This document shows, one piece after another, positions 8,712-50,715 of a stretch of DNA of 64,000 nt. Each line of letters begins with the position of its first letter. Position 1 is the first letter of the stretch. The stretch covers positions 43,693 to 107,692 of the forward strand of contig NIVC01002457.1 in assembly GCA_002269645.1 (NCBI GenBank), given 5' to 3'. Below the pieces are notes generated by a model. The model did not search any database. It was given only the letters and a program-made list of their open reading frames with translations, and was not told the DNA's origin. Position numbers and translations under genes: made by a program. This DNA is from Macrostomum lignano. Taxonomy: Eukaryota.

Positions 8712-8844
8712 CTATCTATAGCCAGGACCTGCACCGGAGCGGTTACGAAAATTAGATTTCTCGGTAGTTGCACGTACTCTTTTGCACTACTTGAGTAGTC
8801 TGATTTTCGTTCGGCATGGCTAGTTCCAGCAGGTAGTTCCTCTG

Positions 8845-9840
8845 TGTAGTGATCCGCTAGTTGATGTTAGGCGTCCCACTTTGTCAGCAGTCTCCCTCGC
8901 CCTCGCCCTGGGTTGCTGTCTGCCGCTGGTCAGCTTCCCACCCCCCTTGGCCCGTCTGTTGCTGCCCTTGGCCTGTTCTGCCCTTCTGCGTCTCTGTTCT
9001 CAGCCCTCAGCTTCTCTGCTGTGGGCTGTCTCTGTTTCGTTCCCGTCCCGTTTTCCTCTGTCATGTGAGCAAGTCACATGACAGACTCTGCGTTCTTCGA
9101 GTCCTAAAGTGCAGTAAACATGTTTACTGCACTCGTTGGCCCTGTTTACCGGGAGAATCACGTGCTTTCGGAACCCTCCCTTCTCTAAGGAGAGGAGTGA
9201 CTCATGTTGCTAAAAATAGCAACTGAGTCACAGCCGCGTGTACTCTGGCCGGAGACCTCAAGTGACGTCAGTTCTAAAAATAGAACGAGTCACGAGGTCT
9301 TGCGCGCACTGAGACCCTGCCTCGAGATCTCAAGTGACGTCAGTTCTAAAAATAGAACAAGTCACGAGGTCTTGTGCGTGGGTGTTTCCCGGCTATAAAT
9401 AGGACCCCTCTCCCCTTGTTTCCGTCAAGGATTTTGGCTTCTTATCTGCGGAGAATTCACTAAGAACCCGTGTGCGTCAGTGTCTAACTAAGTGCCCTTT
9501 GCGTACTGAATCCGTTTGTACTGGTCTGACTGAGACCCCACTAAAGCCCAAGCCTAAGGGAGGCTAACACTGCCTTCCTAGCCACCCCTGAGCCCGGCGG
9601 GGATCTGCTGATCAGGACGCCTTGTTCATTAATCTGCAAATCTGCACACTGTGCTGAGTTCGTTGACTTGTTTATTTCGTTCCGACGGGAAGCTCACCTC
9701 ATCGAAGGCCGAGACCTGAAGGAACTGGTGGCAGCACTACCTACGCTACTGAGAGAGTTGAGAGAACTTCCCACTGAAGAGGCTCAAGATTAAGGTAATC
9801 CGCAAGGGCCTAAACCGGGAAGAAAACCCCAAGTATTTCA
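8845..9840 (+). repeat. 5' LTR
   Basis: TGTAGTGA...AAGTATTTCA; differs from the 3' LTR at about 3 positions seen by eye (one C-run indel, two substitutions). Confidence 0.96.
9109..9402 (+). promoter_or_regulatory. LTR U3 enhancer/promoter: forkhead palindrome, E-box, AP-1, CRE and MEF2 sites, TATA box
   Basis: GTGCAGTAAACATGTTTACTGCAC 9109-9132; CACGTG 9159; TGACTCA 9198; TGAGTCA 9224; TGACGTCA 9263 and 9335; CTAAAAATAG 9210, 9274, 9346; CTATAAATAG 9393. Motif matches only, function not tested. Confidence 0.7.
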
Positions 9841-9841
9841 C

Positions 9842-9862
9842 TGGTGACGCAGCGGTGGGATC
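9842..9862 (+). other. Primer-binding site, tRNA-Leu-like
   Basis: TGGTGACGCAGCGGTGGGATC starts 1 nt after the 5' LTR; complementary to the 3' end of tRNA-Leu(AAG/UAG)-type sequences (…UCCCACCGCUGCCACCA) except for a 2-nt insertion. Confidence 0.7.
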
Positions 9863-11105
9863 CGACTACGACACACCCAAGCCAACCGCTCTTTCGAGAA
9901 CGACATCGGCCAGTAACTACTACGAGTTCAACATGTTCAACGAACGAGACGAGAGCCGGTGCAGCAGCCGGCTGGATCAGCACATCAGCAGTTCGAGGCC
10001 TGCGGCAGCGGACGCCGCAGCAGCAGCAGCGATCAACGACTTTGGTCAGCAGCCGACGCCGAGGCGAGGTGCCAGAAGCGACGTGTCCGACGACCCGCCA
10101 GACGAGCTTCTGCAAGGCCTGGACAACATCGGCCGGAACATCACGCACCAGGACGTGAGGACCATGATGGCAGCTCTGCAGCAGCAGATGGAGCGGCCTG
10201 TGAGTAAACAAGTTAAGATTGTGAAGTATACTCCAAGTCAGGACATTCATGTCTGGCTTGCCGCGTTCGAGCAGCGTTGCGAGATGGAGCGCATCGTCGA
10301 CCCGTTCGAGATGAAGCAACACCTCATCGCGAGTCTCGATTTGGCTACTGCGTATCCAGCCTTGCTTGGTATGAATCTTCCGCGTTTCGCCAGCTACGAG
10401 GAGGTCAAGCAACGTCTGATTGAGCGATTTGCCCGTCATGGTGGTGCTGATGAGTATCGAGAACTGTTGCGACGTCGTCAACAAGGCAAGAATGAGTCAG
10501 CAGAAGAGTTCGCTGACGCCCTGAGAACTCTGGGTGAACGTGCATATCCTCGAATGCATCCTGAAGACCGCGAGAAGGAGATTACTGATCAATTTCTTGC
10601 TGGTATCCGGACGACTCCAGATCTGCGCGAACGGCTGTACTGGGTTCGCCCGAACAATCTTCTTGCTGCGATTCGAGAGCTACGACGACTAGAAGGCGCC
10701 AAAGAATTGGCGCACCGATCTGCTCAACCCCCGGTTAGGATGTTGGACGGGGAGGAGGACGGCGACCCGAAGCCCGACGTCACCGCCCAAGCCTTGCTGA
10801 CTCTAACCGACTTGATTGAGAAGCAGCAGCGAATGCTTGATCACCTGGTGCAGCGTGACCAACAGCAGGTAGCCAGTCCGCCAAAGAGAGCGATAATCTG
10901 CTATAGCTGCGGACAGCCCGGTCATCGCAACACCCAGTGCCCGATGCGCCAGAACCAGGGAAACGGCCAGGCGGAGAGCGACAACGGCACCGCCCTCCGC
11001 GAGGTCCAAGCCCAGGCTACTTGGCAGACTCCGAGAGGTCACCAGAAGAAGAGAATGTCGGCTGTGCAGGCGCCAATGCCCAGTCCGACAGTCGCTCGTC
11101 AGTAA
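9855..11105 (+). CDS. gag: Retrotransposon Gag (capsid-like domain plus CCHC zinc knuckle)
   Basis: 416-aa ORF (first ATG at 9933); capsid-like segment QGKNESAEEFADALRTL; CYSCGQPGHRNTQC = C-x2-C-x4-H-x4-C. Confidence 0.92.
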   Translation: MGSDYDTPKPTALSRTTSASNYYEFNMFNERDESRCSSRLDQHISSSRPAAADAAAAAAINDFGQQPTPRRGARSDVSDDPPDELLQGLDNIGRNITHQDVRTMMAALQQQMERPVSKQVKIVKYTPSQDIHVWLAAFEQRCEMERIVDPFEMKQHLIASLDLATAYPALLGMNLPRFASYEEVKQRLIERFARHGGADEYRELLRRRQQGKNESAEEFADALRTLGERAYPRMHPEDREKEITDQFLAGIRTTPDLRERLYWVRPNNLLAAIRELRRLEGAKELAHRSAQPPVRMLDGEEDGDPKPDVTAQALLTLTDLIEKQQRMLDHLVQRDQQQVASPPKRAIICYSCGQPGHRNTQCPMRQNQGNGQAESDNGTALREVQAQATWQTPRGHQKKRMSAVQAPMPSPTVARQ

Positions 11106-14100
11106 GTGACGCGGAGTGCGGAGGTTTCGTGGACACCTCCCCGAATCAAAAAATCCATGCGCGTGAGGCCGATCCGTACGTCACAGGTCGAGTTGCGAGT
11201 CGAGAGTCCCTTTCTTGCTAGACAGCGGCAGCCGGAAAAACTTCCTTGGTTCGTCAACCTGGGCCGCTATTAGACGCCGGATGCCTCGTTGTATTATATC
11301 GCATGCTAATCCCGATTGCGTAACTATGTATGACGGGACGCAGCTCCCGCTTGCTTGTAAGGTGACCATCCCGGTGGAGTTCGGTGATGTCGTCGCGGAC
11401 ACCGAATTCCTCGTTACGGTCTCCGATTGTGAAAATTTACTTGGCGTATCATTTATGCGAGAGCACTGCCAGAACTTGGACTTCGCTCAAGGAATGTTGA
11501 AGTTTAACAATGGCGCGTGCATCCCCGTTCGCTATTCGCGTCGTGAGCTTCAGAACTGCCGAGTGTACACCTCCGAGAAGTGCACCCTGCCGCCTAGAAG
11601 TTCAGCGCTGCTTGCCGTCAGACTGGATGACGGCCACCCTGAGAATCGAGGATCGCCATCAATTGTCGAGCTGGTTAAGTCGAGGCTGCATCCCAGCTGC
11701 AACGCTCTGGAAGCAGCGCCTGCTCTGATGACGATGCCTGAAGGTCGCGGCTACATTGAGGTCGTCAACACCGCTGACAGCGAAGTGTTTCTGCAAGCCG
11801 GTATCCGTGTTGGTGTCGCGACGCCACTCCGAACTGCCGACCTGATGTACTTGAGCGAGACGCCAGAACCTGAAGTGCGACATCTCCCGAAGAACTCTGA
11901 AGAGTCCAGCACAGCATGGCTAGATGAAGTCGAGATCAACAGCGAATTGTCCAAAGAACAACATCAAAGAGTGCGAGATCTACTAGTCGAATGTCAAGCG
12001 GCCTTCTCCAAGCACCGCTAGACGCCGGCCTGACTCACCTGGTGACCCACGAGATCATCTTGAAGGACCGGACACCAGTTGCGCTACCACCGCGCCGAAT
12101 CCCGCCTCATCTGAAGGACAAGCTCGACGCCCTGCTAGACGAGATGCTGGCGAAGCACATCATTCGCCCTGCCTACTCGAGCTACAATTCGCCAATGCTC
12201 ATCGTGCCCAAGAAGGACGGCAACATCCGACTAGTCCACGACTTCAGAGCTCTCAACGACAGGTGTGTGTATCACCCGTATCCGCTGCCGCACATCCAGG
12301 AAACCTTCGCGAAGCTTCGTGGTGCTCAGTGGTATTCCAGCCTGGACCTTGCTCAAGGATTCTGGCAGATCCCGCTGCGGACTGCGACCAGCACCTGACG
12401 GCGTTCTCAGTAATCGACCGCGGCCAATTCTGTTTTAACGTTCTACCGATGGGTCTCCACGATAGTCCCGGCAGCTTTCAGCGTTGCATCAATAAGCTCC
12501 TGGACGGCCTGACGCCAAAGACTGCGCTTGGCTACATGGACGACATCGTGGTGCACTCAGTGACTTTGAGGAACAGCTGGATAATTGCGAACTGTACTCC
12601 AGCGCATCATCGCAGCCAACCTCAAAGTGAAACCGAAGAAGTGTCATTTGTTCCTCAAGGAGCTGCATTATTTAGGTCACGTCGTGACTCCCGACGGCCT
12701 GAAGACCTGTGAGGACAAGATTGCGCAGATCCGTGATTGGCCCGTGCCACAGTCCGTTACTCAACTGAGACAATTCCTAGGCCTCGCCAATTACTACCAC
12801 AAGTTTGTCGACGGCTACGCTGGAGTGGCTGCGCCGCTGCATGCCCTGACGCGAAAGGACATTGGCAGCCTGCGGCAGCATTGGACTCCCGAGCATCAGT
12901 AGCGTTCGACACTTTGAAGAAGAAATTGTGTTCTACTGAAGTTCTCGCTCTGCCTGAATTTAATTCTCATCCTGCAGTGAAGTTTGTCCTCGACACGGAT
13001 GCCTCTGATATTCGAATAGGCGCTTGCCTTGGACAACTGCAATCCGACGGCGTCGAACGTCCAATTGCATTCTTTAGCCGTAAACTTCGCGATCCTGAGA
13101 AGCGCTACACGGTCACGAAGAAAGAGCTGCTTGCAATTGTGGACGCTATGCGACATTTCCGTCATTATTTAATTGGCAAGAAATTTGAAGTTCGATCCGA
13201 TCATCGGGCCTTACTGTGGTTACTGAACCAGACTCAGGCACAGGTATTTTAGGCCGCTGGATCGAACGCCTAAGCGAGTTCCGCTTCCAGCTCAACCACC
13301 GCAAAGGCAAGGACCACGTCAACGCCGACGCCCTGTCAAGAAGACCGGAGACACCACCGATCACCTTCGAGCATGGCCGACTCCTTGAACCACCCGGTTC
13401 TGCAGCCCAACCCGGTGCCGGCGACAGCCCCAAGACTGAGCGCCGACGTTTCCTGGAAACGGACTTGGACGCGACACCCGAGGCCACTGCCAGAGCAGCC
13501 CTCCCGAAGACTGTCCACTCTCGCTCCTTGGAGGCCGAGACTGACCTGGACGAAGACCTGGAAGCCACCGCGCCAGCAGCCTTCCAGCACGACGCCCACC
13601 GATGCAGTCAACGCCTGGAGTTCGGCCTGGACGACAACTCAGAGGCCACTGTGACAACAGCCCTCTGCAACGATGCCCACGCCGACTGCCGCTACTTGGA
13701 GACCAACCTGGACGAAGACCTTGAGGCCACTGTGGACACAGACCTCCTTGACGACGCCAAAGACTACAGGTCTCGGACTCTGGAGACGCCCACGGACCAA
13801 GATTCAAAGGCCACCGCACCAGCAGCCCTTCTGATGACGGCCCGCAACGCAACTCCAGGCAAGCAATTTAACTACAACCCCGCCGAGCCTTTCGCTGAGA
13901 TTTCTCGCCGTGTTGACAGAGGCCAGAATCTCGCGCCAGCTGCAAGGTCGAAGCTCTGTCCCCCGGGCCGACAGACAGCTGCTCATCGCCTGTGCGGAAA
14001 GTCGAGTCCCCCCTTGCGACACCGCCCAGTGCAGGAGAAGACTCACCCAATTTTGACTACGATTGAGCCGACGGCTACGCTGCCAGCGACGAGGCGTGCT

Positions 14101-16247
14101 TCACGTGTTGCGTCCCGCCCTACAGCCAAGAGTCGCCTGGGCTAGGCAGTGGAGGCATGCGCGCTGCTCCATCTGCGGATTTTTCTGTCATGAGAGCGAT
14201 GAAGAGAACTTCGATTCTAGATCAACGGACGTACGCCGACGTTGTGAGACAAAGTCCCTCGGAGCGACCTAATCCTGACGCCGACAAGACGGTGCCGTGT
14301 GATCGACCTGGAGCCATTAAAGCGGAGACTGCGGGAGTCATGACCCCTCAGCCATGCCGCGCTGTGCTCACTGATTTTCTGAAGCTGCCGATGACTCGCC
14401 AACAGTTCGTTGACGCCCAACGCGCTGACCGAGCCATCAGCTACGTGCTCAACCTGGTCGAGAACGAAGCCCCGAAGCCTGAGTTCGACGCCCGGTTGCG
14501 ACTGACTAAGGAGCAGCGGAATCTGCTCGGATACTACGAGAACCTGCAGGAGGACAACGGCCTGCTGCTGATTGATCTGACTGATGGCCAGCAGCCGCCA
14601 AAGGTTGTTCTGCCTGAGGCCCTTGACGCCCAGGTGCTCCAGGAGCTCCACAGTTCGCCACTGTGTGGACACCTCGGCGAGACGAAGACGTTACTGCGGC
14701 TACGAGAACGGTTCTGGAGACCCGGATTAGCCCGTGCTACCAAGACCTTCATCAGTAAGTGCCGCACTTGCCTTGAAAGTAAATCGCGACGGCGAGAGAG
14801 AGTTCCGGTCCAGAGCTTCCCAGTTTGCGAAGTTCTGGGTAGAATCCACTGTGATGTAGTAGGACCAATCGCGCAGAAGAGCAAGAGCGGCAACCGCTAC
14901 ATCCTGACTTGTGCGATGCGACGTCGAAGTATCCATTCGCCTACCCGATGAGAAACCAGAAAGCCAAAACAGTCATCAAGCTTCTGCAGGAGCGCTTCAT
15001 CCCGAGTTCGGTGTACCATGCTGGATCCACACTGACCAAGGCACCAACTTCACCGGCTCAGCCTTCAAGAAGTTCTGCGACCTGTTTGGCATTCGGCATA
15101 CGACAACAACACCGTACAATCCAGCTTCCAACGGACAAGTCGAGAACCTCAACAAACAGCTGAAGAGTGTCCTCACCTGTCTGCTCGAGCGCAACCACAA
15201 CGACTGGGACACCTTCCTCCCGGCCTGTCTGATGGCTCTCCGCTCCAGCGTGCACCCGGTGACCGGCTTCACGCCTCACTACCTGGTGTTCGGCCGTGAT
15301 TTCCGACTCCCGATCGACAACGCGCTGAAGAAGCTGCCCGAGTACGCCGACCTGCCCGACTACGTCAAGGACTTCCAACGTCGCCTGGACGAGGCGACTG
15401 AGCTAGCCAAGGAGCGCCTGCATCTGCACCAGCAACTACGAGACGAGCACTATTCGAACCTGCCCGCCGCCAAGAAGCTTCAACCCGGTGATCTGGTCTT
15501 CCTCAACAACCCGGTACTCGAACCGGATGAGGCGGCGAAGTTTCATCGACCTCGCAAAGCGCTGTACGAAGTCGTCGAGCCCAAGGGCGAGGTCGTCTAC
15601 AAGATTCGACGGAGACTGCCTAACCCGAGAGCTAGACGAGACGAACTAGTCGTCCATCGCCGGAACCTTCTGCTCGTGCCTGACGCTGACTACACGAGAA
15701 CTTCGGACCCTGAAGTCGACAAACCGAAGAAACGCCGGCGGCCGCCCGACGTCCCCGACGGCGCAGGACCCGCGACCCTGACGCCAATCCCGAGGACGAC
15801 CAGGACGACCCCGACGATGACGATGATGACGGCTACGACGCAAGGCCGGCCTTCCGATGGCACTTCCGGCCTTTGGCGATCCCGGAGGTGCAGCCAGGAG
15901 GTGGACCGGTCACGACACCAGCGAACCAGGCAAGTGCACTTCGGCGTGAGCCAGTGCCGTATGGTGAATGTCATTTGCATGAGCCTGTTCTTGATGCGTC
16001 TATGCCTTCTGTTTCTGTACCGTTCGTTTCTGCTCCCGCCCTTCGTGATGCTTCTTCTGTGGTCCAGACCCCTGGGCCGTCGTTGTGCACCACTCCGGTG
16101 GAAGCGACTGTAGAATCGGTAGATGCCGGTAGGCCGGCTAGGAACCGTAGGCAGCCTGAGAGGCTGGTTATTAATCCTAGGGCCAAGACTTATGTTAGTC
16201 GCACTGCCCGCAGCTGCGTGCACCGATCAACCCAACGCAGCGATTAA
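10958..16247 (+). CDS. pol: Retrotransposon Pol (protease, RT, RNase H, integrase), interrupted by multiple 1-bp frameshifts in this sequence
   Basis: Protease LLDSGS (~11215); RT YSSLDLAQGFWQI, LPMGL, YMDD; RNase H LDTDASD ... NADALSR; integrase HHCC (HSSPLCGH...CRTC), IHCDVVGP, IHTDQGTNF, GQVE. Spread over at least 9 track ORFs. Confidence 0.93.
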
Positions 16248-16782
16248 CTCTGACTCTGTGGACTTGGTGCTGACAGGCACCCTCTGATTTCTCCCTGCTC
16301 TACTTTATGTGGCGCCTCAATAGCGGGCCAGCGCCCCCGCAATGCGTACTCGTTTATCTTCCCGTGAACTGTTGTTCTGATGCAGTTCTGCATCCCCCTT
16401 CTCCCCAGTGACGGGCTCTACCGGCTTACTATGGTATCCCGTATATTTAGGCGCCCATTTTCCGGGCCGGCGCCCCCGAACCGCTGTCGGACTGATGTCC
16501 TGATTCTGCGTACGCCCGAGGGACTTGCCAGCCCCTCCGATTTTATTATTTTCTAGGGCTCTGCCTTGGCGTGGGCAACCCACTGCATGGTGCTATTCGC
16601 GCTTTGCCATTTCGGGCCACAATCCTGACCTTGGCCCAGCCGTGTAATAATTGGTATGCCTTGTGACACTGTCATCCTTTTGCCAGGCATTTGTAATAAT
16701 TTTATTTAGTAAAATCACTATTTTGTTTATTAAATAAAGCGCGCTTCGCTTTCACTCCGCCTCTTCATTTGAACGGGGAGAG

Positions 16783-17777
16783 TGTAGTGATCCGCTAGTT
16801 GATGTTAGGCGTCCCACTTTGTCAGCAGTCTCCCTCGCCCTCGCCCTGGGTTGCTGTCTGCCGCTGGTCAGCTTCCCACCCCCTTGGCCCGTCTGTTGCT
16901 GCCCTTGGCCTGTTCTGCCTTTCTGCGTCTCTGTTCTCAGCCCTCAGCTTCTCTGCTGTGGGCTGTCTCTGTTTCGTTCCCGTCCCGTTTTCCTCTGTCA
17001 TGTGAGCAAGTCACATGACAGACTCTGCGTTCTTCGAGTCCTAAAGTGCAGTAAACATGTTTACTGCACTCGTTGGCCCTGTTTACCGGGAGAATCACGT
17101 GCTTTCGGAACCCTCCCTTCTCTAAGGAGAGGAGTGACTCATGTTGCTAAAAATAGCAACTGAGTCACAGCCGCGTGTACTCTGGCCGGAGACCTCAAGT
17201 GACGTCAGTTCTAAAAATAGAACGAGTCACGAGGTCTTGCGCGCACTGAGACCCTGCCTCGAGATCTCAAGTGACGTCAGTTCTAAAAATAGAACAAGTC
17301 ACGAGGTCTTGTGCGTGGGTGTTTCCCGGCTATAAATAGGACCCCTCTCCCCTTGTTTCCGTCAAGGATTTTGGCTTCTTATCTGCGGAGAATTCACTAA
17401 GAACCCGTGTGCGTCAGTGTCTAACTAAGTGCCCTTTGCGTACTGAATCCGTTTGTACTGGTCTGACTGAGACCCCACTAAAGCCCAAGCCTAAGGGAGG
17501 CTAACACTGCCTTCCTAGCCACCCCTGAGCCCGGCGGGGATCTGCTGATCAGGACGCCTTGTTCATTAATCTGCAAATCTGCACACTGTGCTGAGTTCGT
17601 TGACTTGTTTATTTCGTTCCGACGGGAAGCTCACCTCATCGAAGGCCGAGACCTGAAGGAACTGGTGGCAGCACTACCTACGCTACTGAGAGAGTTGAGA
17701 GAACTTCCCACTGAAGAGGCTCAAGATTAAGGTAATCCACAAGGGCCTAAACCGGGAAGAAAACCCCAAGTATTTCA
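16783..17777 (+). repeat. 3' LTR
   Basis: Copy of 8845-9840, preceded by a polypurine tract and followed by the TCTG TSD. Confidence 0.96.
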
Positions 17778-18461
17778 TCTGGATAAAAGCGCTTACCGCG
17801 CCCATTGGCTTTCCAGCTGCCTTAATCGTTTCCGGTGATCTTGTGTGCGTGCTTTCAGCTTGATTGGCTGCGGCAAGCAAGCTCGAAAGAGCTCGCTTCG
17901 CTCGCTCTTTCTCGCTATCTACTATCTATCTATCTATCTATCTATCGCCTCAGAAAAGTCAGTCTCAGAAAAGGTTGACTTAAATGAGGAGTGTCTGTCA
18001 CAATTTATGACGGTCTTTACGTTTTATACTTTACTTTTGCTTTGCAGTGTAATCACAACGCGAATTACAGAAACAACAACAAAAAATAATTTGAATATAC
18101 CGTGACTTCTATCAAAGAAAAAGTAAATTAATAAAACAAATTTTAGAAACTTTCGAGAGTTTTTAGCGCAAATCTAAATTCAGATCCAAATCTTCCGAAG
18201 TGAATACAAGGAACTCTCAGCTGCTTCCATGCTCTGCATCAAAACGAACGCCTTGCCATCTTTGTCTGCGGTAGTAGTGCAAAAAATTAAATTAAGTTCA
18301 ACGATATAAGAGAGGATAGAGATGCGGGCACAGGGACTGTAAAAAAGAAGCAGATTAGCTCTTACTTATAGTACAACAAAACAGTCAAACCAGTTGGATT
18401 ATGTACATAAAAACTGCAAAACTGTCAGTTCGATAAGCTCGATTTGGTTCGGTTATTCGAA

Positions 18462-21400
18462 TCAGGCGCTGCTCTCAGATGAAGCCACTGGCGCTGCGGC
18501 GGATTCTGCGGCGGCCGCCGCCGGGGCGGACAAGTGGGCGGATCCCGGGGCGGATGAAGAGGCGGACGCCACGTCCATTGTGTCGGCTCCGTACCACCTA
18601 TGGGCTTTGGTGTTCATTCTGGATAAGACGGTCTGGCTGGCTTCGAAAGCGGCAACGATTTCTTCTTTCCATTGCTCGGCCAGGACTCGGTCCTGATTGA
18701 GGTGTTCAAAACTTTTCGTGAGCGCTCGTTTTTTGAAAATTTGCTCCTCTATGATCATTATTCTATAGCCTATGGGTCTTTGTGTACGGGGCCGGTGTGT
18801 AAAGGAGTGACTCTGGGGTTGGGGGGTCGGTGTGTACAGGAGTGACTCTGGGGTTGGGGGGTCGGTGTGTACAGGAGTGACTCTGGGGTTGGGGGGTCGG
18901 TGTGTACAGGAGTGACTCTGGGGTTGGGGGGTCGGTGTGTACAGGAGTGACTCTGGGGTTGGGGGGTCGGTGTGTACAGGAGTGACTCTGGGGTTGGGGG
19001 GTCGGTGTGTACAGGAGTGACTCTGGGGTTGGGGGGTCGGTGTGTACAGGAGTGACTATGGGGTTGGGTGGTCGGTGTGTACAGGAGTGACTATGGGGTT
19101 GGGTGGTCGGTGTGAAAAGGAGTGACTATGGGGTTGGGGGGGGTTCGGTGTGTACAGGAGTGACTCTGGGGTTGGGGGTGTACAAGAGTGACTATGGGTT
19201 GGGTGTGTACAGGAGTGACTCTGGGTTGGGGGTGTACAGGAGTGACTATGGCATTGGTGGTGTACAGGAGTGATTATGGCATTGAGGTGTACAGGAGTGA
19301 TTATGGCATTGAGGTGTACAGGAGTGATTATGGCATTGAGGTGTACAGGAGTGATTATGGCATTGGGGTGTACAGGAGTGATTATGGCATTGGGGTGTAC
19401 AGGAGTGACTATGGGTTGGGGGTGTACAGTAGTGACTACATGAGTTAGGGGTTGGGGGTTCGGTGTGTACGGGAGTGACTGCAGTGGTGAGTAACGTACA
19501 GCCACCTCGCCTCCCTGTCGATAAACCAAGCAGCCAGAGCCCCCGTACCGTGCAAGTCAGGTAGACCCGCTGATCCGTCTTCAAGCTGATGAGGATGCAA
19601 TTCTCGTGCTTGCCAAACTTTTGAAATTCTCTGCTGACTTCGCGAATGTCAAACATGGCCAGCAGTTCAACGGCCGGCTTGCGCTGCAGGCCGGGCTTGC
19701 AGTGCATCTCCAGGCGGTTGGGGAACAGCCTCAGGTAGCGCTTCTGGCTGGCCTGAAAGTGGCCACCAAGGCGGAGTACTTCGCCCTCAACGATACAGTC
19801 GGAGCTTGCCGCGGCGGCGTCGCTAGCCGACGCGCCCGGAGCGACATCCGCCGACGATTCGATTGGCCATTTCGTTCGTCGAGCTTCAATTTTATCCTCC
19901 TCGAGGTTCACCGCCTCGAAGACGGTGTCGGCTACCTCTAGCTGCCAGCGCTCAGAAACGGTCAGGTTAAAGTTGCGGTACAACTGCTGGTCCACGTCTG
20001 TGAGCTTGATGCCTGCCGGTGACAGATGGTGACAGGTGTGCGGTCCGGGGGAGTCACAAATACTGGGAGAGTAAGGAAAGTGAAAAGAGTGACAGTAGAG
20101 TGACTATAGAGTGAGGGAAGGAACACGAGTGACAGTTGAGTGATTAGAGAGTGAGGGAAGGAACAAGAGTGACAGTTGAGTGATTAGAGAGTGAGGGAAG
20201 GAACAAGAGTGACAGTTGAGTGATTAGAGAGTGAGGGAAGGAACAAGAGTGACAGTTGAGTGATTAGAGAGTGAGGGAAGGAACAAGAGTGACAGTTGAG
20301 TGATTAGAGAGTGAGGGAAGGAACAAGAGTGACAGTTGAGTGATTAGAGAGTGAGGGAAGGAACAAGAGTGACAGTTGAGTGATTAGAGAGTGAGGGAAG
20401 GAACAAGAGTGACAGTTGAGTGATTAGAGAGTGAGGGAAGGAACAAGAGTGACAGTTGAGTGATTAGAGAGTGAGGGAAGGAACAAGAGTGACAGTTGAG
20501 TAATTAGAGAGTGAGGGAAGGAACAAGAGTGACAGTTGAGTGATTAGAGAGTGAGGGAAGGAACACGAGTGACAGTTGAGTGATTAGAGAGTGAGGGAAG
20601 GAACAAGAGTGACAGTTGAGTGATTAGAGAGTGAGGGAAGGAACAAGAGTGACAGTTGAGTGATTAGAGAGTGAGGGAAGGAACAAGAGTGACAGTTGAG
20701 TGATTAGAGAGTGAGGGAAGGAACAAGAGTGACAGTTGAGTGATTAGAGAGTGAGGGAAGGAACAAGAGTGACAGTTGAGTGATTAGAGAGTGAGGGAAG
20801 GAACAAGAGTGACAGTTGAGTGATTAGAGAGTGAGGGAAGGAACAAGAGTGACAGTTGAGTGATTAGAGAGTGAGGGAAGGAACAAGAGTGACAGTTGAG
20901 TGATTAGAGAGTGAGGGAAGGAACACGAGTGACAGCTGAGTGATTAGAGAGTGAGGGAAGGAACACGAGTGACAGTTGAGTGATTAGAGAGTGAGGGAAG
21001 GAACACGAGTGACAGTTGAGTGATTAGAGAGTGAGGGAAGGAACAAGAGTGACAGTTGAGTGATTAGAGAGTGAGGGAAGGAACAAGAGTGACAGTTGAG
21101 TGATTAGAGAGTGAGGGAAGGAACAAGAGTGACAGTTGAGTGATTAGAGAGTGAGGGAAGGAACAAGAGTGACAGTTGAGTGATTAGAGAGTGAGGGAAG
21201 GAACAAGAGTGACAGTTGAGTGATTAGAGAGTGAGGGAAGGAACAAGAGTGACAGTTGAGTGATTAGAGAGTGAGGGAAGGAACAAGAGTGACAGTTGAG
21301 TGATTAGAGAGTGAGGGAAGGAACAAGAGTGACAGTTGAGTGATTAGAGAGTGAGGGAAGGAACAAGAGTGACAGTTGAGTGATTAGAGAGTGAGGGAAG

Positions 21401-24400
21401 GAACACGAGTGACAGTTGAGTGATTAGAGAGTGAGGGAAGGAACAAGAGTGACAGTTGAGTGATTAGAGAGTGAGGGAAGGAACAAGAGTGACAGTTGAG
21501 TGATTAGAGAGTGAGGGAAGGAACAAGAGTGACAGTTGAGTGATTAGAGAGTGAGGGAAGGAACAAGAGTGACAGTTGAGTGATTAGAGAGTGAGGGAAG
21601 GAACAAGAGTGACAGTTGAGTGATTAGAGAGTGAGGGAAGGAACAAGAGTGACAGTTGAGTGATTAGAGAGTGAGGGAAGGAACAAGAGTGACAGTTGAG
21701 TGATTAGAGAGTGAGGGAAGGAACAAGAGTGACAGTTGAGTGATTAGAGAGTGAGGGAAGGAACAAGAGTGACAGTTGAGTGATTAGAGAGTGAGGGAAG
21801 GAACAAGAGTGACAGTTGAGTGATTAGAGAGTGAGGGAAGGAACAAGAGTGACAGTTGAGTGATTAGAGAGTGAGGGAAGGAACAAGAGTGACAGTTGAG
21901 TGATTAGAGAGTGAGGGAAGGAACAAGAGTGACAGTTGAGTGATTAGAGAGTGAGGGAAGGAACAAGAGTGACAGTTGAGTGATTAGAGAGTGAGGGAAG
22001 GAACAAGAGTGACAGTTGAGTGATTAGAGAGTGAGGGAAGGAACAAGAGTGACAGTTGAGTGATTAGAGAGTGAGGGAAGGAACAAGAGTGACAGTTGAG
22101 TGATTAGAGAGTGAGGGAAGGAACAAGAGTGACAGTTGAGTGATTAGAGAGTGAGGGAAGGAACAAGAGTGACAGTTGAGTGATTAGAGAGTGAGGGAAG
22201 GAACAAGAGTGACAGTTGAGTGATTAGAGAGTGAGGGAAGGAACAAGAGTGACAGTTGAGTGATTAGAGAGTGAGGGAAGGAACAAGAGTGACAGTTGAG
22301 TGATTAGAGAGTGAGGGAAGGAACACGAGTGACAGTTGAGTGATTAGAGAGTGAGGGAAGGAACAAGAGTGACAGTTGAGTGATTAGAGAGTGAGGGAAG
22401 GAACAAGAGTGACAGTTGAGTGATTAGAGAGTGAGGGAAGGAACAAGAGTGACAGTTGAGTGATTAGAGAGTGAGGGAAGGAACAAGAGTGACAGTTGAG
22501 TGATTAGAGAGTGAGGGAAGGAACAAGAGTGATAGTTGAGTGATTAGAGAGTGAGGGAAGGAACAAGAGTGATAGTTGAGTGATTAGAGAGTGAGGGAAG
22601 GAACAAGAGTGACAGTTGAGTGATTAGAGAGTGAGGGAAGGAACAAGAGTGACAGTTGAGTGATTAGAGAGTGAGGGAAGGGACAAGAGTGACAGTAGAG
22701 TGACTATAGAGTGAGGGAAGGAACAAGAGTGACAGTTGAGTGATTAGAGAGTGAGGGAAGGAACACGAGTGACAGTTGAGTGATTAGAGAGTGAGGGAAG
22801 GAACAAGAGTGACAGTTGAGTGATTAGAGAGTGAGGGAAGGAACAAGAGTGACAGTTGAGTGATTAGAGAGTGAGGGAAGGAACAAGAGTGACAGTTGAG
22901 TGATTAGAGAGTGAGGGAAGGAACAAGAGTGACAGTTGAGTGATTAGAGAGTGAGGGAAGGAACAAGAGTGACAGTTGAGTGATTAGAGAGTGAGGGAAG
23001 GAACAAGAGTGACAGTTGAGTGATTAGAGAGTGAGGGAAGGAACAAGAGTGACAGTTGAGTGATTAGAGAGTGAGGGAAGGAACAAGAGTGACAGTTGAG
23101 TGATTAGAGAGTGAGGGAAGGAACAAGAGTGACAGTTGAGTGATTAGAGAGTGAGGGAAGGAACAAGAGTGACAGTTGAGTGATTAGAGAGTGAGGGAAG
23201 GAACAAGAGTGACAGTTGAGTGATTAGAGAGTGAGGGAAGGAACAAGAGTGACAGTTGAGTGATTAGAGAGTGAGGGAAGGAACAAGAGTGACAGTTGAG
23301 TGATTAGAGAGTGAGGGAAGGAACAAGAGTGACAGTTGAGTGATTAGAGAGTGAGGGAAGGAACAAGAGTGACAGTTGAGTGATTAGAGAGTGAGGGAAG
23401 GAACAAGAGTGACAGTTGAGTGATTAGAGAGTGAGGGAAGGAACAAGAGTGACAGTTGAGTGATTAGAGAGTGAGGGAAGGAACAAGAGTGACAGTTGAG
23501 TGATTAGAGAGTGAGGGAAGGAACAAGAGTGACAGTTGAGTGATTAGAGAGTGAGGGAAGGAACAAGAGTGACAGTTGAGTGATTAGAGAGTGAGGGAAG
23601 GAACAAGAGTGACAGTTGAGTGATTAGAGAGTGAGGGAAGGGACAGAGTGACAGTTGAGTGATTAGAGAGTGAGGGAAGGACAAGAGTGACAGTTGAGTG
23701 ATTAGAGAGTGAGGGAAGGAACAAGAGTGACAGTTGAGTGATTAGAGAGTGAGGGAAGGAACAAGAGTGACAGTTGAGTGATTAGAGAGTGAGGGAAGGA
23801 ACAAGAGTGACAGTTGAGTGATTAGAGAGTGAGGGAAGGAACAAGAGTGACAGTTGAGTGATTAGAGAGTGAGGGAAGGAACAAGAGTGACAGTTGAGTG
23901 ATTAGAGAGTGAGGGAAGGAACAAGAGTGACAGTTGAGTGATTAGAGAGTGAGGGAAGGAACAAGAGTGACAGTTGAGTGATTAGAGAGTGAGGGAAGGG
24001 ACACGAGCGACAATTAAGTGACAAGAGTGACAGTGGAGTGACAAGAGTGACAGTGGAGTGACAAGAGTGACAGTGGAGTGACAAGAGTGACAGTGGAGTG
24101 ACAAGAGTGACAGTGGAGTGACAAGAGTGACAGTGGAGTGACAAGAGTGACAGTGGAGTGACAAGAGTGACAGTGGAGTGACAAGAGTGACAGTGGAGTG
24201 ACAAGAGTGACAGTGGAGTGACAAGAGTGACAGTGGAGTGACAAGAGTGACAGTGGAGTGACAAGAGTGACAGTGGAGTGACAAGAGTGACAGTGGAGTG
24301 AGTGAGAAAGACATACGAGAGTCATGAAGTGGAGCAACAGGTGACAGAATGCTGATGTCCGGAGTTCGCCAACCTTTCGTCTCCTCGTCATCGAACGAGC

Positions 24401-25511
24401 CAATATCGAATGCGTCGTGCGCGTTGACCTCGCCTCTGGGCGGCACCAACGGCGTCGGATACTTCCGCTGCACAACCTGCGTCCAGTCGATGCCGTCGAA
24501 GAAGGCGTGCTCGCGCACCTCGGCAGCGCCGCGGCCTCGACAGCCCAACCGGTTTGCAACCTGCCGAGCCAGGAGGCCCTCTAGCAGGCTGCGAACCTCC
24601 GGCGAAGCCGTGTCGCCCAGATCGGCGCTCAGGTTCAGCGCGTGCCGGTCTTCGCTGTCAGCCTGGCGTTGGTCTCGCGACCTCTGCTGCTGCCTGTAGG
24701 GGCTCCGGCCGCAGAGCAGTTTGTACAGCACGCAGCCGAAGCTGAACCAATCGGCAGAGCTGTCGTAGGCGACGCCCTTCTGCAGCACTTCAGGCGCCAT
24801 GTAGCCGTGCGTGCCGACGCTGGCGTGGGGCTTCTTGCGCGAATAGTCGCAGGCGAGGCCGAGGTCGCTGATGCGCACGTGACCGTTCTCGTCTAGCAGG
24901 ATGTTGGCCGGCTGCGGGGTGGGCGGGACACTCAAATTGTCACTGATAGTCAAATTGTCACTGATAGTCAAATTGTCACTGATAGTCAAATTGTCACTGA
25001 CAGACAAATTGTCACTGACAGTCAAATTGTCACTGATAGTCAAATTGTCACTGACAGTCAAATTGTCACTGATAGTCAAATTGTCACTGACAGTCAAATT
25101 GTCACTGATAGTCAAATTGTCACTGACAGTCAAATTGTCACTGACAGTCAAATTTTCGTTACTAAACCCGCGATCAGTTTGTTATTCAATGTTTAGGACC
25201 GCGTAAGGTTCCGAATGAAAAGAATATGCGGGTACTTTCTGCTTTGAAACAAAGAAGAGTGCAGACAGAGGAAGCAGCAACTAAAGCTCCCCGGGGGGGG
25301 GGGAGGTTAGCTGCGACACGGAAACAAGCGGAGCAGGCAACCGGATCTTTGTCAATCATTCATGTAGTTAGAGAGAGACCCTGCTCTGGAGCAGCAATAA
25401 GTTGCTCTGCATAGGATTGGCGCCTCTAGAGGCCTAACGGAGATAAGCCCGAGTTGTTTGGAATTCTTTTGTGAGCTCTGCTTCCTATCCTGCCACTGAG
25501 TGCAGGGCTTC

Positions 25512-25574
<63 letters not shown>

Positions 25575-28500
25575 GTCCCCTCCGCCTCTTCCTTCCTTTC
25601 TCCGCCCGCGTCTCGAATGGCTCGCCGAACGCAGCTGGAACGGCTCAGAGTGAGGCACGCTAGGGAGAAGGAAATGCTCCTGTGTGTTGTGGCTTTCTGT
25701 TTCTGCTTTTCACGTACTGTTTCCCTAACTAGCAGCTTTCGGCTTACTGAACTGCCTGTCTTTATTTCCTCCTCTTCGCTAGGCCACTGTCACCTGCCAG
25801 TATCTCCCGCCCCTCTCCCTGCCAGTATCTCCCGCCCCTCTCCTGCCCTCTCCCTGCCCCTCTCCTGCCCCTCTCCCTGCCCCTCTCCCTACCCCTCTCC
25901 TGCCCCTCTCCCTGCCCCTCTCCCTGCCCCTCTCCCTGCCAGTATCTCCCGCCCCTCTCCCTGCCAGTATCTCCCGCCCCTCTCCCTGCCAGTATCTCCC
26001 GCCCCTCTCCCTGCCCCTCTCCCTGCCCCTCTCCCGCCCCTCTCTCTGCCCCTCTCCCTGCCCCTCTCCCTGCCCCTCTCCCTGCCCCTCTCCCTGCCCT
26101 CTCCCTGCCCCTCTCCCGCCCCTCTCTCTGCCCCTCTCTCTGCCCCTCTCCCTGCCCCTCTCCCTGCCCCTCTCCCTACCCCTCTCCTGCCCCTCTCCCT
26201 GCCCCTCTCCCTGCCCCTCTCCCTGCCAGTATCTCCCGCCCCTCTCCCTGCCAGTATCTCCCGCCCCTCTCCCTGCCAGTATCTCCCGCCCCTCTCCCTG
26301 CCCCTCTCCCTGCCCCTCTCCCGCCCCTCTCCCTGCCCCTCTCCCTGCCCCTCTCCCTGCCCCTCTCCCTGCCCCTCTCCCTGCCAGTATCTCCCGCCCC
26401 TCTCCCTGCCAGTATCTCCCGCCCCTCTCCCTGCCAGTATCTCCCGCCCCTCTCCCTGCCAGTATCTCCCGCCCCTCTCCCTGCCCCTCTCTCTGCCCCT
26501 CTCCCTGCCCCTCTCCCTGCCCCTCTCCCTGCCCTCTCCCTACCCCTCTCCCGCCCCTCTCCCTGCCCTCTCCCTGCCCCTCTCCCTGCCAGTATCTCCC
26601 GCCCCTCTCCCTGCCAGTATCTCCCGCCCCTCTCCCTGCCAGTATCTCCCGCCCCTCTCCCTGTCAGTATCTCCCGCCCCTCTCCCTGCCAGTATCTCCC
26701 GCCCCTCTCCCTGCCCCTCTCCCTGCCCCTCTCCCGCCCCTCTCCCTGCCCCTCTCCCTACCCTCTCCTGCCCCTCTCCCTGCCCCTCTCCCTGCCCCTC
26801 TCCCTGCCAGTATCTCCCGCCCCTCTCCCTGCCAGTATCTCCCGCCCCTCTCCCTGCCAGTATCTCCCGCCCCTCTCCCTGCCCCTCTCCCTGCCCCTCT
26901 CCCTGCCCCTCTCCCTGCCCCTCTCCCTGCCCCTCTCCCTGCCAGTATCTCCGCCCCTCTCCCTGCCCCTCTCCCTGCCCTCTCCCTGCCCCTCTCCCTG
27001 CCCCTCTCTCTGCCCCTCTCCCTACCCCTCTCTCCCTGCGCCTCTCTCCCTGCGCCTCTCTCCCTGCGCCTCTCTCCCTTCCCCTCTCTCTGCCCCTCTC
27101 CCTGCCCCTCTCCCTGCCCCTCTCCTTGCCCCTCTCCCTGCCCCTCTCCCTGCCCTCTCCTGCCCCTCTCCCTGCCCCTCTCTCTGCCCCTCTCTCTGCC
27201 CCTCTCCCTACCCCTCTCTCCCTGCCTCTCTCTCCCTACCCCTCTCTCCCTGCCCCTCTCTCCCTGCGCCTCTCTCCCTGCCCCTCTCCCTAGCCCTCTC
27301 CTGCCCCTCTCCCTGCCCCTCTCCCTACCCCTCTCCCTACCCCTCTCTCTGCCACTCTCCCTCAGCCTCTCTGCCTCACTCTCCTTCCTAAGCACTAAGA
27401 TTGCATATAAGCATCGTTTTTGCAACCAATTTATTCCAGATAATAAAATGCCCTACACGCAGCACTGGAGATTATAAAAAAATAGAACTAGATCACTCCA
27501 GCTCTGTTGATTGTGCGTCAAGTTGACTGAATTCAGCTCAATTCTCTTTTTGAGATCCCCAGATAGTAGCGGAGCATTGTCAATAGGCGGAGGCTTCACA
27601 ACAGTAGCTGAAAAATCCGCGTTTCCCCCTCCACAATCACGCTGATTTCGTAGAAACGACAAAAACAGGCAAAAATAATGACGACTGCTAATGATGATGA
27701 TACACATCCCACCTCTCTGCATAAGCCCGCCCCTCTTAGCTCACCCCGGGCCAACCCAAGCCCCGTACCCCAGACCCCGCAACTCCCCATTTAGCTCGAA
27801 GATCCTTGCTAAAGTCACCCCGGCGGAAAATTTGGAAAGCTGAGACCGCACGGTTGTGGAGACGACTCTCTAATATGCCCGCTGGGGGGGGGGGCGCTGA
27901 TTCGGCGTTCATAGCGCATTCTTGTACGCGAACTGGGACTGTTAAACCGAAAGAGAGAGAGGCGAGAGGGGAGAGGCAGAGACGGGAAGGGAGGATAGAA
28001 GCCAAGTAGGGATTTTTATCCTAGCGAGGGTCCTGCTTCTCTTCCTGCCTGCCTGCCCGCCTGCCCGCCTGCCTGCCTTGCCTGTCTCCTCAGCAAGCCA
28101 CGCGATCGTCGGAAAAATGAGTAGCAAGTCGGTATAAGTCCCCCCCATCGCCCTGGCTATGCTGAGCTGTTTTGCTCTCTCCCTGTGTTTCTCAATCTCT
28201 GCTTTCGAATCTGGACAGAGGTTGGGAGGTCGGTGGGGGGGGGGGTGGGCTCTCGGTTGCAAATCTCTTTCCCCCTAATCGACTCCCATCATCTCGGCAG
28301 CGTTAGCGCTCAGAAATTCAGTTTTCTTTAACAGAGCTGAATCCCAATCCACCCCCTGCAGTGCATTTCAGATCCATATTTAGCTGCGATAGAATAGCCA
28401 ATAAAGGCAAAGCGAGCATTTGCATGCGACAGATTTTTAGGCTCAAACGAGCTGAATTAGTAATTTATCAGGCAGCTGTAGTGGATGCAGAGGGAAGCTG

Positions 28501-31500: not shown

Positions 31501-32084
31501 AGTATAAGGACGAAAAGTATCCTGCGGAAGAGTCTTGGTCCTCTGAGCGGCAGTCAGGTGCTCCTGAACGCTTGCGGCAGCAGCTGCGCTGAATCGATGA
31601 CTATGGGCCAGGAGTTCTTGCATGATGAATGAGTCGTAAATATTTCTACCAAGACGGATGCGCATTTCTTCGCAATCTAATTCTTCAAACTTCTGTACTT
31701 CTTCGTAAAATGCGAAAACTTGGGCGTAGTCTTCCAGCTGCTGCTCCACGAACTCCTTCATCAATAGGAAGCCAAGGCGCTGATTAAAGATCTTCTCAAA
31801 CGTAATTTCTTCTCTTTTGGATAAATGCTTCATCATAATGCTTCGCACGCTGTGGGTGAAGTGAAAAAAAGCCGTCAATAACTCATACATAAAAAATTAT
31901 TGACTACGCTTGAACTCAACTGCAGTGGATATATGCAAGTACAGAATTTAATAATAAAGAAATGATCTCACCTGGCGGGTGGTAGAGTAATTTTCTTACT
32001 TGCCCTTGCCGCTGGAGTGGACTTGGATTTTTCCATTGCCATAAGATAGCTTACATCGGCTAATACTGCTTCTAAGTCTGCCAT
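18462..32084 (-). CDS. GRK2: G protein-coupled receptor kinase 2/3 (beta-adrenergic receptor kinase) orthologue, 6 exons, about 734 aa
   Basis: Exons (minus) 32084-31972, 31849-31396, 31294-30890, 24911-24374, 20012-19549, 18692-18462, all GT-AG and phase-consistent (2205 nt). N-terminus [26 protein letters not shown] domain, [25 protein letters not shown] tail, PH domain. Confidence 0.96.
18793..19480. repeat. 35-bp and 27-bp G-rich minisatellites in GRK intron 5
   Basis: GGGGTTGGGGGGTCGGTGTGTACAGGAGTGACTCT units grading into GGTGTACAGGAGTGATTATGGCATT(G/GA) units. Confidence 0.93.
20087..24000. repeat. 40-bp minisatellite in GRK intron 4
   Basis: About 97 near-identical units of GAGTGACAGTTGAGTGATTAGAGAGTGAGGGAAGGAACAA. 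Confidence 0.98.
24016..24303. repeat. 20-bp minisatellite in GRK intron 4
   Basis: (GAGTGACAAGAGTGACAGTG)n, about 14 copies. Confidence 0.96.
24932..25153. repeat. 18-bp minisatellite next to the GRK exon 4 acceptor
   Basis: (CAAATTGTCACTGAYAGT)n, about 12 copies. Confidence 0.95.
25507..25573. repeat. (CTG)n trinucleotide repeat
   Basis: About 20 CTG units in GRK intron 3. Confidence 0.95.
25793..27365. repeat. C-rich 12-bp-based minisatellite (CTCTCCCTGCCC with CAGTATCTCCCG variants)
   Basis: About 1.55 kb; G-rich on the GRK sense strand. Confidence 0.95.
28636..29752. repeat. 24-bp pyrimidine minisatellite (CTCTCATCTCTAGTCTCTCCTTTC)n
   Basis: Direct reading; source of the MRGKERLE and SSLVSPFL ORFs. 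Confidence 0.96.
30443..30570. repeat. Short 24-bp tandem repeat (CCAAATGACCTTGAGGCGATTCTT)
   Basis: About 5 degenerate copies. Confidence 0.85.

Positions 32085-45310: not shown

Positions 45311-50715
<5,405 letters not shown>

What the first reader, a model, noticed from the sequence alone, without database searches (positions are those of the whole stretch)
9109..9402. LTR U3 is built like an immediate-early (MEF2 + CRE + AP-1 + forkhead) enhancer
Seen: 300 bp contain a perfect 24-bp palindrome of two inverted forkhead cores (GTAAACA/TGTTTAC), a third TGTTTAC (9143), a CACGTG E-box, two AP-1 heptamers, two CRE octamers and three exact CTAAAAATAG sites. The TATA box (CTATAAATAG) also fits the MEF2 consensus CTA(A/T)4TAG. 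The CRE-MEF2 module was amplified by a 46-bp duplication (9257-9302 / 9329-9374). Established: MEF2 plus ATF/AP-1 modules drive calcium-, stress- and wound-induced immediate-early genes such as c-jun. Inference: this young element may couple its transcription to injury, regeneration or excitable-cell activity, and may spread inducible enhancers through the genome.
Basis: partly seen in the sequence, partly recalled or inferred. Interest (0 to 1): 0.8.

Follow-up and report, generated by a model that had tools for sequence, protein, structure and literature searches.

The report
Flatworm retrotransposon's stress-signal enhancer cluster
The promoter of a young retrotransposon in the regenerating flatworm Macrostomum is packed with textbook binding sites for signal- and stress-responsive transcription factors, which suggests, but does not show, that it switches itself on when the worm is injured, starved or stimulated.

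Summary
The motifs are real. They lie in U3 of a young Ty3/gypsy element (8845-17777; LTRs differ at 3 of 996 positions; 4-bp target duplication) whose integrase is 97% identical to a Macrostomum lignano protein. The cluster far exceeds shuffles (12 hits against 0.23) and a null that keeps every repeat and palindrome (0 of 200,000). It weakens only if about 300 motif classes are allowed after the fact (P=0.07).

Corrections: the palindrome is 26 bp and its core is the FOXO homodimer site DIV2. Two MITF/TFEB M-boxes upstream were missed. The duplication is 55 bp. All three bZIP-MEF2 modules are copies of one hairpin, so independent events are few. The region is a chain of palindromes (z about -10).

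Best reading: a two-tier inducible LTR promoter, bZIP+MEF2 near the TATA box and FoxO+MiT/TFE further up, answering broad stress rather than wounding alone. No expression data could be tied to it. Nothing supports enhancer spreading. Stress-element capture by LTRs is already shown in this species (heat-shock elements), and MEF2+CRE is known from HTLV-1 and EBV promoters. New variant of a known kind, directly testable.

The parts
8841..8844 (+). Left 4-bp target-site duplication (TCTG)
   Evidence: same four bases at 17778-17781
8845..9840 (+). 5' LTR, 996 bp, TG...CA ends
   Evidence: 99.7% identical to the 3' LTR
9057..9085 (.).
   Evidence: M-box defined as a MiT/TFE site in PMC6355916; none elsewhere in the window outside the LTRs
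9108..9133 (.). Perfect 26-bp palindrome; core 9114-9127 is the forkhead homodimer site DIV2
   Evidence: exact 14-mer crystallised with FOXO1 in PMC8034652
9143..9149 (-). Third, single forkhead core
9158..9164 (+). TCACGTG E-box (MiT/TFE- or USF-type flank on one side); not significant alone
9196..9232 (.). Module 1: AP-1 (9198-9204), MEF2 (9210-9219), AP-1 (9224-9230), forming one 15-pair hairpin
9252..9306 (.). Module 2 (first copy of the 55-bp duplication, itself a hairpin): CRE 9263-9270, MEF2 9274-9283, degenerate AP-1 arm 9287-9293
9324..9378 (.). Module 3 (second copy): CRE 9335-9342, MEF2 9346-9355
9393..9402 (+). TATA box embedded in a 10-bp MEF2 consensus (11 of 12 to the SELEX consensus); only TATA box in the LTR; start of transcription inferred near 9420-9430
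   Evidence: start site is inference from spacing
9842..9861 (+). Primer-binding-site-like stretch starting TGG one base after the LTR; likeness to a tRNA-Leu 3' end is recalled, not tested
9933..11105 (+). gag, open frame, single CCHC zinc knuckle
11167..16211 (+). pol (protease region, RT, RNase H, integrase) in pieces over several frames; no env
   Evidence: at least 8 frame changes between 11946 and 15004
16771..16782 (+). Polypurine tract
16783..17777 (+). 3' LTR, 995 bp; carries an identical copy of the enhancer at 16994-17339

Best explanation
This is the U3 enhancer-promoter of a recently inserted Ty3/gypsy retrotransposon of Macrostomum lignano, and it most likely works as a broad, multi-input inducible switch. 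Proximal tier (about -230 to -25): three bZIP-MEF2 composite modules and a MEF2-shaped TATA box. By analogy with EBV Zp, MEF2 would hold the promoter down at rest and, with CREB/ATF/Jun, fire it on calcium, MAPK or cAMP signals (injury, excitation, infection). Distal tier (about -365 to -260): a FOXO-type dimer site, a third forkhead site and three MiT/TFE-type boxes, the pair that co-occupies promoters under starvation, oxidative and heat stress in C. elegans. The array was built from few seeds: each of three seed sites was doubled by an inverted duplication, and the bZIP-MEF2 hairpin was then copied twice in tandem. Shown: anatomy, motif identity, excess over chance, shared origin of the modules. 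Inferred: which proteins bind, inducibility, the trigger, the duplication route, and any benefit to the element.
For: Position: all sites lie within 340 bp upstream of the only TATA box of the LTR. Quality: the three upstream MEF2 sites match the 12-bp SELEX consensus quoted in PMC3807682 in full, with only two other matches in the rest of the window; the palindrome core is the exact DIV2 14-mer; M-boxes are exact. Classes recur outside their own hairpin (third forkhead core, third bHLH-Zip box). Nulls: and up to about 120 classes. Modules 1 and 2 differ by five one-base indels and no substitution, yet both keep MEF2 and a canonical bZIP site, AP-1 in one and CRE in the other. Precedents: three MEF2 sites plus a CRE/AP-1 site in EBV Zp; FOXO/TFEB co-occupancy; MEF2-TBP at fly immune TATA boxes. 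The same host's LTRs are shown to capture a stress element that works (heat-shock elements), and single forkhead cores sit next to those elements in 2 of 6 such families.
Against: No expression, chromatin or binding data for this family were found: Mlig008663 and Mlig004203 are absent from the tables searched and the family cannot be mapped to the published family numbers. Conservation across copies could not be tested. Independent events number about eight, not fourteen, and the after-the-fact test loses significance at 300 classes. Sparing of the sites by the 3 mismatches between modules 2 and 3 is what chance gives about 30% of the time (18 of 55 positions are sites; my arithmetic). Palindrome arms extend 4-6 bp beyond the sites, which protein binding does not explain. 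MEF2, forkhead and E-box sites also drive constitutive muscle, neuron or gut expression, and MEF2 can repress in starvation. Binding specificities of the Macrostomum factors are assumed from vertebrates, fly and worm.
Confidence: 0.5

Rival explanations
1. Constitutive, tissue-specific strong enhancer: the same sites drive steady expression in muscle or neurons (MEF2), gut (forkhead, MiT/TFE) or cycling stem cells (FOXM1 on the DIV2 site), without marked induction.
For: FOXM1 and FOXI1 also dimerise on DIV2, FOXM1 most strongly. MEF2 is a developmental muscle factor. Tandem duplication of U3 enhancer units usually raises strength (established retroviral knowledge, recalled). No serum-response (CArG) box and no canonical heat-shock element in the LTR.
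Against: AP-1 and CRE sites are built into every MEF2 module at 3-5 bp spacing, which is typical of signal-responsive rather than lineage enhancers; expression in terminal somatic tissue gives a non-infectious element (no env) no route to the next generation.
Confidence: 0.22
2. One reading: a wound/regeneration immediate-early enhancer, induced mainly by injury, that also seeds inducible enhancers beside host genes.
For: bZIP+MEF2 modules are nearest the TATA box and were the part amplified. Gypsy elements rise during regeneration in sea cucumber and Hydra, one clustering with Jun/Fos/creb (PMC13465017). M. lignano regrows gonads from somatic stem cells after injury, proposed as a window into the germline.
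Against: Ignores the FoxO/MiT tier. For the heat-induced families of this host only two solo LTRs lay within 2 kb of mildly induced genes; in Hydra most induced gypsy copies are not near regeneration genes. This copy lies 3' of a GRK2-like gene, tail to tail, more than 14 kb from its 5'-most recognised exon.
Confidence: 0.15
3. Structural by-product: U3 is a chain of fold-back palindromes produced during replication (or kept for RNA/ssDNA structure), and palindromic factor motifs appear as a side effect.
For: 9050-9410 folds far better than shuffles on both strands and as DNA (z -9.95, -8.74, -10.13), only in this part of the LTR. Every MEF2 site upstream of TATA is the loop and inner stem of a hairpin; the duplicated unit is exactly one hairpin; arms of 12 and 13 bp exceed the longest arm (9) in 200 shuffles. 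Modules 1 and 2 differ by a symmetric base pair.
Against: With the palindrome map kept, 0 of 200,000 random fills gave five of the six classes. Stems have almost no G-U pairs (0 in the M-box, forkhead and module-1 hairpins) and no strand preference, unlike selected RNA structure. No Rfam family above its threshold. The forkhead core is not itself palindromic.
Confidence: 0.1

Closest known systems
Heat-shock-element LTR families of M. lignano (Mlig-id115 Mag, id36 and id55 CsRN1, id38 Gmr1/Osvaldo; PMC12801592)
   Same: Same host, same superfamily, host stress-response sites captured in U3 upstream of a TATA box; reporter platform exists.
   Different: This LTR has no canonical heat-shock element, is about 1 kb rather than 250-400 bp, and is none of the six deposited families; text searches of their deposited sequences found no MEF2, CRE, M-box or DIV2 site.
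EBV BZLF1 promoter Zp (PMC8706188)
   Same: Three MEF2 sites plus a CREB/AP-1-type site in about 220 bp; MEF2 represses at rest and activates on calcium.
   Different: Herpesvirus gene promoter; Sp1/KLF and viral autoactivation sites; no FoxO dimer or M-box tier reported in the passages read. Analogy only, no homology.
HTLV-1 LTR (PMC4374383)
   Same: LTR U3 with tandem CRE-bearing repeats, a MEF2 site near TATA and a second one overlapping TATA.
   Different: MEF2 site is imperfect (7 of 10) and single; activation needs the viral Tax protein; vertebrate retrovirus.
Drosophila MEF2-TATA element (PMC3807682)
   Same: TATA box with MEF2-compatible flanks, bound by MEF2-TBP on infection.
   Different: The LTR's TATA fits the general 10-bp MEF2 consensus but neither fly consensus exactly; such flanks occur in 88 of 890 fly TATA promoters.
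DAF-16/FOXO + HLH-30/TFEB co-bound promoters (PMC6199276); DIV2 site (PMC8034652)
   Same: Forkhead sites next to MiT/TFE-type E-boxes; exact DIV2 geometry.
   Different: Described for host genes; not seen described in a retrotransposon in my searches.
ERVK LTR (PMC3598470)
   Same: U3 with three MITF-responsive E-boxes shown to work, and a predicted list that includes MEF2, AP-1 and CRE.
   Different: Those further sites are mostly predictions; no repeated bZIP-MEF2 hairpin module described in the passages read.

Membership tests
Ty3/gypsy LTR retrotransposon | Two direct LTRs with TG...CA ends and a target-site duplication | tested here: met
   996/995 bp, 4-bp TCTG
Ty3/gypsy LTR retrotransposon | gag then pol with order RT - RNase H - integrase | tested here: met
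Ty3/gypsy LTR retrotransposon | Primer-binding site and polypurine tract | tested here: met
   the priming tRNA itself was not identified by any search
Ty3/gypsy LTR retrotransposon | Intact pol (autonomous copy) | tested here: not met
   at least 8 frame changes; a host receptor gene in the window is also frameshifted, so assembly errors are possible
M. lignano Ty3 clades (Mag, CsRN1, Gmr1/Osvaldo, Mdg3/Micropia) | RT phylogeny with named reference elements | not testable with these tools
   no named reference RTs returned; 4-bp duplication, one CCHC and a long LTR lean to Gmr1/Osvaldo or Mdg3/Micropia by recalled features only
Heat-shock-element LTRs | Canonical three-unit HSE in the LTR | tested here: not met
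   pattern as defined in PMC12801592
Immediate-early enhancer (c-jun/Zp type) | MEF2 and ATF/AP-1/CRE sites clustered near TATA | tested here: met
Immediate-early enhancer (c-jun/Zp type) | Rapid, protein-synthesis-independent induction by stimulus | not testable with these tools
   no expression data could be linked
Immediate-early enhancer (fos/egr type) | SRF CArG box | tested here: not met
   none in the LTR
DIV2 forkhead dimer site | Exact 14-bp palindrome of two diverging cores | tested here: met
DIV2 forkhead dimer site | Dimeric binding by the host FoxO or FoxM | not testable with these tools
   needs EMSA or ChIP
FOXO/TFEB co-regulated promoter | Forkhead sites with M-/E-boxes | tested here: met
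FOXO/TFEB co-regulated promoter | Induction by starvation or stress that needs both factors | not testable with these tools
   no data
Co-opted (exapted) LTR enhancer | Regulates a neighbouring host gene | tested here: inconclusive
   nearest recognised gene is a GRK2-like gene whose 3' end faces the element; no expression link

The most novel reading that the evidence does not exclude
A flatworm Ty3 family has assembled, by doubling single sites into palindromes and then copying a bZIP-MEF2 hairpin, a natural sensor of whole-body remodelling: it reads both injury/calcium signals and FoxO/TFEB nutrient stress, and so is transcribed just when somatic stem cells rebuild tissues and gonads, giving it a post-embryonic route into the germline. 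The 350-bp piece would double as a ready-made wound/activity reporter for flatworms.
Probability: 0.2. Interest if true: 0.8.

Novelty: new variant of a known kind. Interest (0 to 1): 0.52.

Why it matters
Regeneration-linked rises in gypsy RNA are reported in several animals without a cis-mechanism, and PMC12801592 calls its heat-shock case only the second validated capture of that stress element by an LTR element. This LTR gives an unusually clean, mutable candidate for a different pathway, in a host with transgenesis and an LTR reporter already built. It makes testable whether a retrotransposon times itself to injury or starvation, and shows a plausible route (inverted then tandem duplication) by which U3 gains dimeric sites. 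If it proves constitutive, it is an ordinary strong LTR enhancer.

Tried and rejected
Other copies or solo LTRs inside the window: none beyond the two LTRs. Reading U3 of sister copies from predicted proteins: four related gene models (P0002, P0018, P0020, P0044) cover U5, gag or pol but not U3. Linking to expression: Mlig008663 and Mlig004203 not in the heat-stress table (which uses other identifiers) or in the three supplements held for PMC5730564; MEF2, FOXO, MITF, CREB, JUN not named in the heat table, three bZIP transcripts up and one down. Species names for the two best hits of a neighbouring receptor gene could not be obtained, so the host rests on the element's own named hits. Known RNA family: only a sub-threshold miRNA-hairpin match over the palindrome (22.6 bits against 49.5), rejected. 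RNA-structure function: no strand preference, few G-U pairs. Heat-shock type: no HSE. TATA/MEF2 overlap as independent evidence: down-weighted. tRNA genes in the window: none. Multiple alignment of the modules was poor and was replaced by a pairwise one. PMC11410931 passages gave nothing usable. Unchecked: conservation across genomic copies and other Macrostomum species (no eukaryote genome collection; viral and metagenome collections closed), the 131 other published families (sequences not in the supplements seen), bioRxiv supplements, and the earlier 2020 classification paper.

Full report
What the region is. Self-comparison of the window shows two direct repeats, 8845-9840 and 16783-17777, differing by one indel and two substitutions, none inside the motif cluster. 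They start TG, end CA, and are flanked by a 4-bp duplication; a primer-binding-site-like stretch follows the first and a purine tract precedes the second. Between them lie an open gag with one zinc knuckle and pieces of RT, RNase H and integrase in Ty3/gypsy order. There is no env-sized frame. Pol changes frame at least eight times between 11946 and 15004 against an intact relative; a host receptor gene at 52088-53289 is also frameshifted, so some breaks may be assembly errors. The integrase piece is 97% identical to M. lignano BOX15_Mlig008663g1 and 59% to Mlig004203g3, and gag hits a M. lignano UniRef entry. Host and youth of the insertion are therefore well supported; other close copies exist. 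The clade was not determined.

The observation. Every motif named is present at the stated place. The palindrome is 26 bp; the duplication is 55 bp with three mismatches and a 72-bp period. In 5000 dinucleotide shuffles the five classes give 0.23 hits on average and at most 4, against 12; removing one duplicated unit leaves 10 against 0.15; trinucleotide shuffles agree. No 300-bp window outside the LTRs has more than 2 hits (1237 windows). The CACGTG alone is not significant.

(1) The palindrome core is the exact DIV2 14-mer on which FOXO1, FOXO3, FOXM1 and FOXI1 bind as homodimers (PMC8034652, passages). (2) An inverted repeat at 9057-9085 carries two TCATGTGA boxes, the M-box of MITF/TFEB/TFE3 (PMC6355916, passages); shuffle expectation 0.02 per LTR. 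With the TCACGTG at 9158 this makes three MiT/TFE-type boxes beside three forkhead cores. FOXO and TFEB co-occupy promoters under starvation and other stresses in C. elegans (PMC6199276, passages). (3) Module 1 (AP-1, MEF2, AP-1) is homologous to the duplicated CRE-MEF2 unit: five one-base indels and no substitution over 38 columns. The three modules are copies of one unit. (4) The whole stretch is self-complementary: z = -9.95 as RNA, -8.74 on the other strand, -10.13 as DNA, 0 of 100 shuffles as stable in each, confined to about 8995-9444. Each upstream MEF2 site is the loop and inner stem of a hairpin.

Is the motif content a by-product of the palindromes? I kept the full map of direct and inverted copies (230 free positions of 361) and refilled at random: of 200,000 fills, 2 had four of the six classes, none five; the most hits was 8, against 14 in six classes. 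The stems are almost pure Watson-Crick and show no strand preference, which argues for DNA-level duplication rather than selected RNA structure. The remaining weakness is that the motifs were chosen after seeing the sequence. Taking the best six of K random pseudo-motifs of the same shapes on the real sequence, 14 hits are reached with P = 0 of 20,000 (K=30), 0.00005 (60), 0.004 (120), 0.07 (300), 0.36 (600). The result holds if these count among the few dozen canonical animal motifs, which I judge they do; it would not hold against a full motif library treated as equal. The three upstream MEF2 sites match the 12-bp SELEX consensus quoted in PMC3807682; the TATA site matches 11 of 12. The TATA overlap is weak evidence: 88 of 890 fly TATA promoters fit a MEF2-TATA consensus, and 6 of 98 TATAWA hexamers in this window, two of them the LTR copies, have such flanks.

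Control with other LTRs of the host. In the deposited sequences of six M. lignano heat-shock-element families (PMC12801592 supplement 5; alignment rows cut to about 400 columns, consensus files line-wrapped, so split motifs can be missed), text searches found no DIV2, CTAAAAATAG, CRE or M-box, three AP-1 heptamers, none seen inside an LTR, and single forkhead cores in the LTRs of two families (I viewed 14 of the 26 occurrences). So the cluster is not a general trait of this host's LTRs, on a small and selected sample. This element has no canonical heat-shock element and is not one of the six.

How it most likely works. Shown: a dense, high-quality site array in the 340 bp above the only TATA box. 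Inferred: a proximal tier in which MEF2 and CREB/ATF/Jun convert calcium, MAPK or cAMP signals into transcription, as in EBV Zp, where three MEF2 sites repress at rest and activate on calcium beside a CREB/AP-1 site (PMC8706188, passages), in the HTLV-1 LTR (PMC4374383, passages) and at c-jun (PMC3413818, passages); and a distal FoxO/MiT tier for nutrient and oxidative stress. I put this broad inducible reading at 0.5, a constitutive tissue enhancer at 0.22 (FOXM1 also binds DIV2; MEF2 can repress in starved worms, PMC4972359, passages), the narrow wound-plus-enhancer-spreading reading at 0.15, and a structural by-product at 0.1. The selective logic is inference: the element has no env, so expression must reach the germline; PMC12801592 notes that gonads regrow from somatic stem cells after injury. 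That starved worms also resorb and rebuild gonads is recalled, not checked.

Enhancer spreading. No support. This copy sits between microsatellites, about 0.7 kb beyond the end of the last open frame assigned by position to a GRK2-like gene on the opposite strand (RGS, kinase and PH pieces). For the heat-induced families only two solo LTRs lay near mildly induced genes, and induced Hydra gypsy copies are mostly far from regeneration genes (PMC13465017, passages).

Novelty. LTRs bearing host stress elements are known, including in this species (PMC12801592: I read parts 1-3 of 6 of the text, supplement 1 whole, and searched supplements 2 and 5). ERVK U3 has working MITF boxes and predicted MEF2/AP-1/CRE sites (PMC3598470, passages). 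Searches listed no paper describing a repeated bZIP-MEF2 module or a FoxO-dimer/M-box tier in an invertebrate Ty3 LTR; the library lacks most subscription papers, and I saw those results as listings only. Verdict: real feature, new variant of a known kind, function untested, easily tested. Interest 0.52.

Noticed in passing
window 9545-9793 (+), and 17482-17730 in the 3' LTR: An 82-codon frame without ATG in R/U5. Related copies keep the frame with conservative-looking changes (P0020 60%, P0044 80% identical). Could be a non-AUG upstream frame or just LTR similarity read through by gene predictors; only 3 hits in the representative library.
   Followed up: partly
window 16696-16740: The only nearby AATAAA signals lie just before the polypurine tract; the LTR has none on the + strand. 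Possible early polyadenylation that would separate mRNA from genomic RNA.
   Followed up: no
window 9138-9156 with 9385-9406: A predicted 18-pair long-range stem joins the third forkhead site to the TATA box and closes the three modules into one multibranch fold (pair probability 0.93).
   Followed up: partly
window 13350-14350: About 1 kb of extra sequence between RNase H and integrase with a repeated acidic peptide, present in close relatives (P0018, P0020) but much shorter in P0019.
   Followed up: no
P0002 against window 9912-10226 and 15709-15974: A M. lignano gene model joins the gag start to the integrase tail: probably an internally deleted, non-autonomous relative of this family.
   Followed up: partly
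window 18465-31896 (-): GRK2/beta-adrenergic-receptor-kinase-like gene with exons separated by minisatellite arrays; the 3' LTR promoter points into its 3' end and could make antisense RNA.
   Followed up: partly
window 51992-55592 (+): Two tandem intron-poor ligand-gated ion channel (nAChR-like) genes; the first has a frameshift near 53090.
   Followed up: partly
window 37482-38231 and 46154-46780 (+): RBR-type E3 ligase exon and a serine/threonine phosphatase exon.
   Followed up: no
window 8845-9056: The distal 210 bp of U3 has only 6% A on the + strand, in sharp contrast to the balanced motif region.
   Followed up: no
whole window: More than 25 tandem arrays (periods 3-72), several of 1-4 kb.
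   Followed up: no
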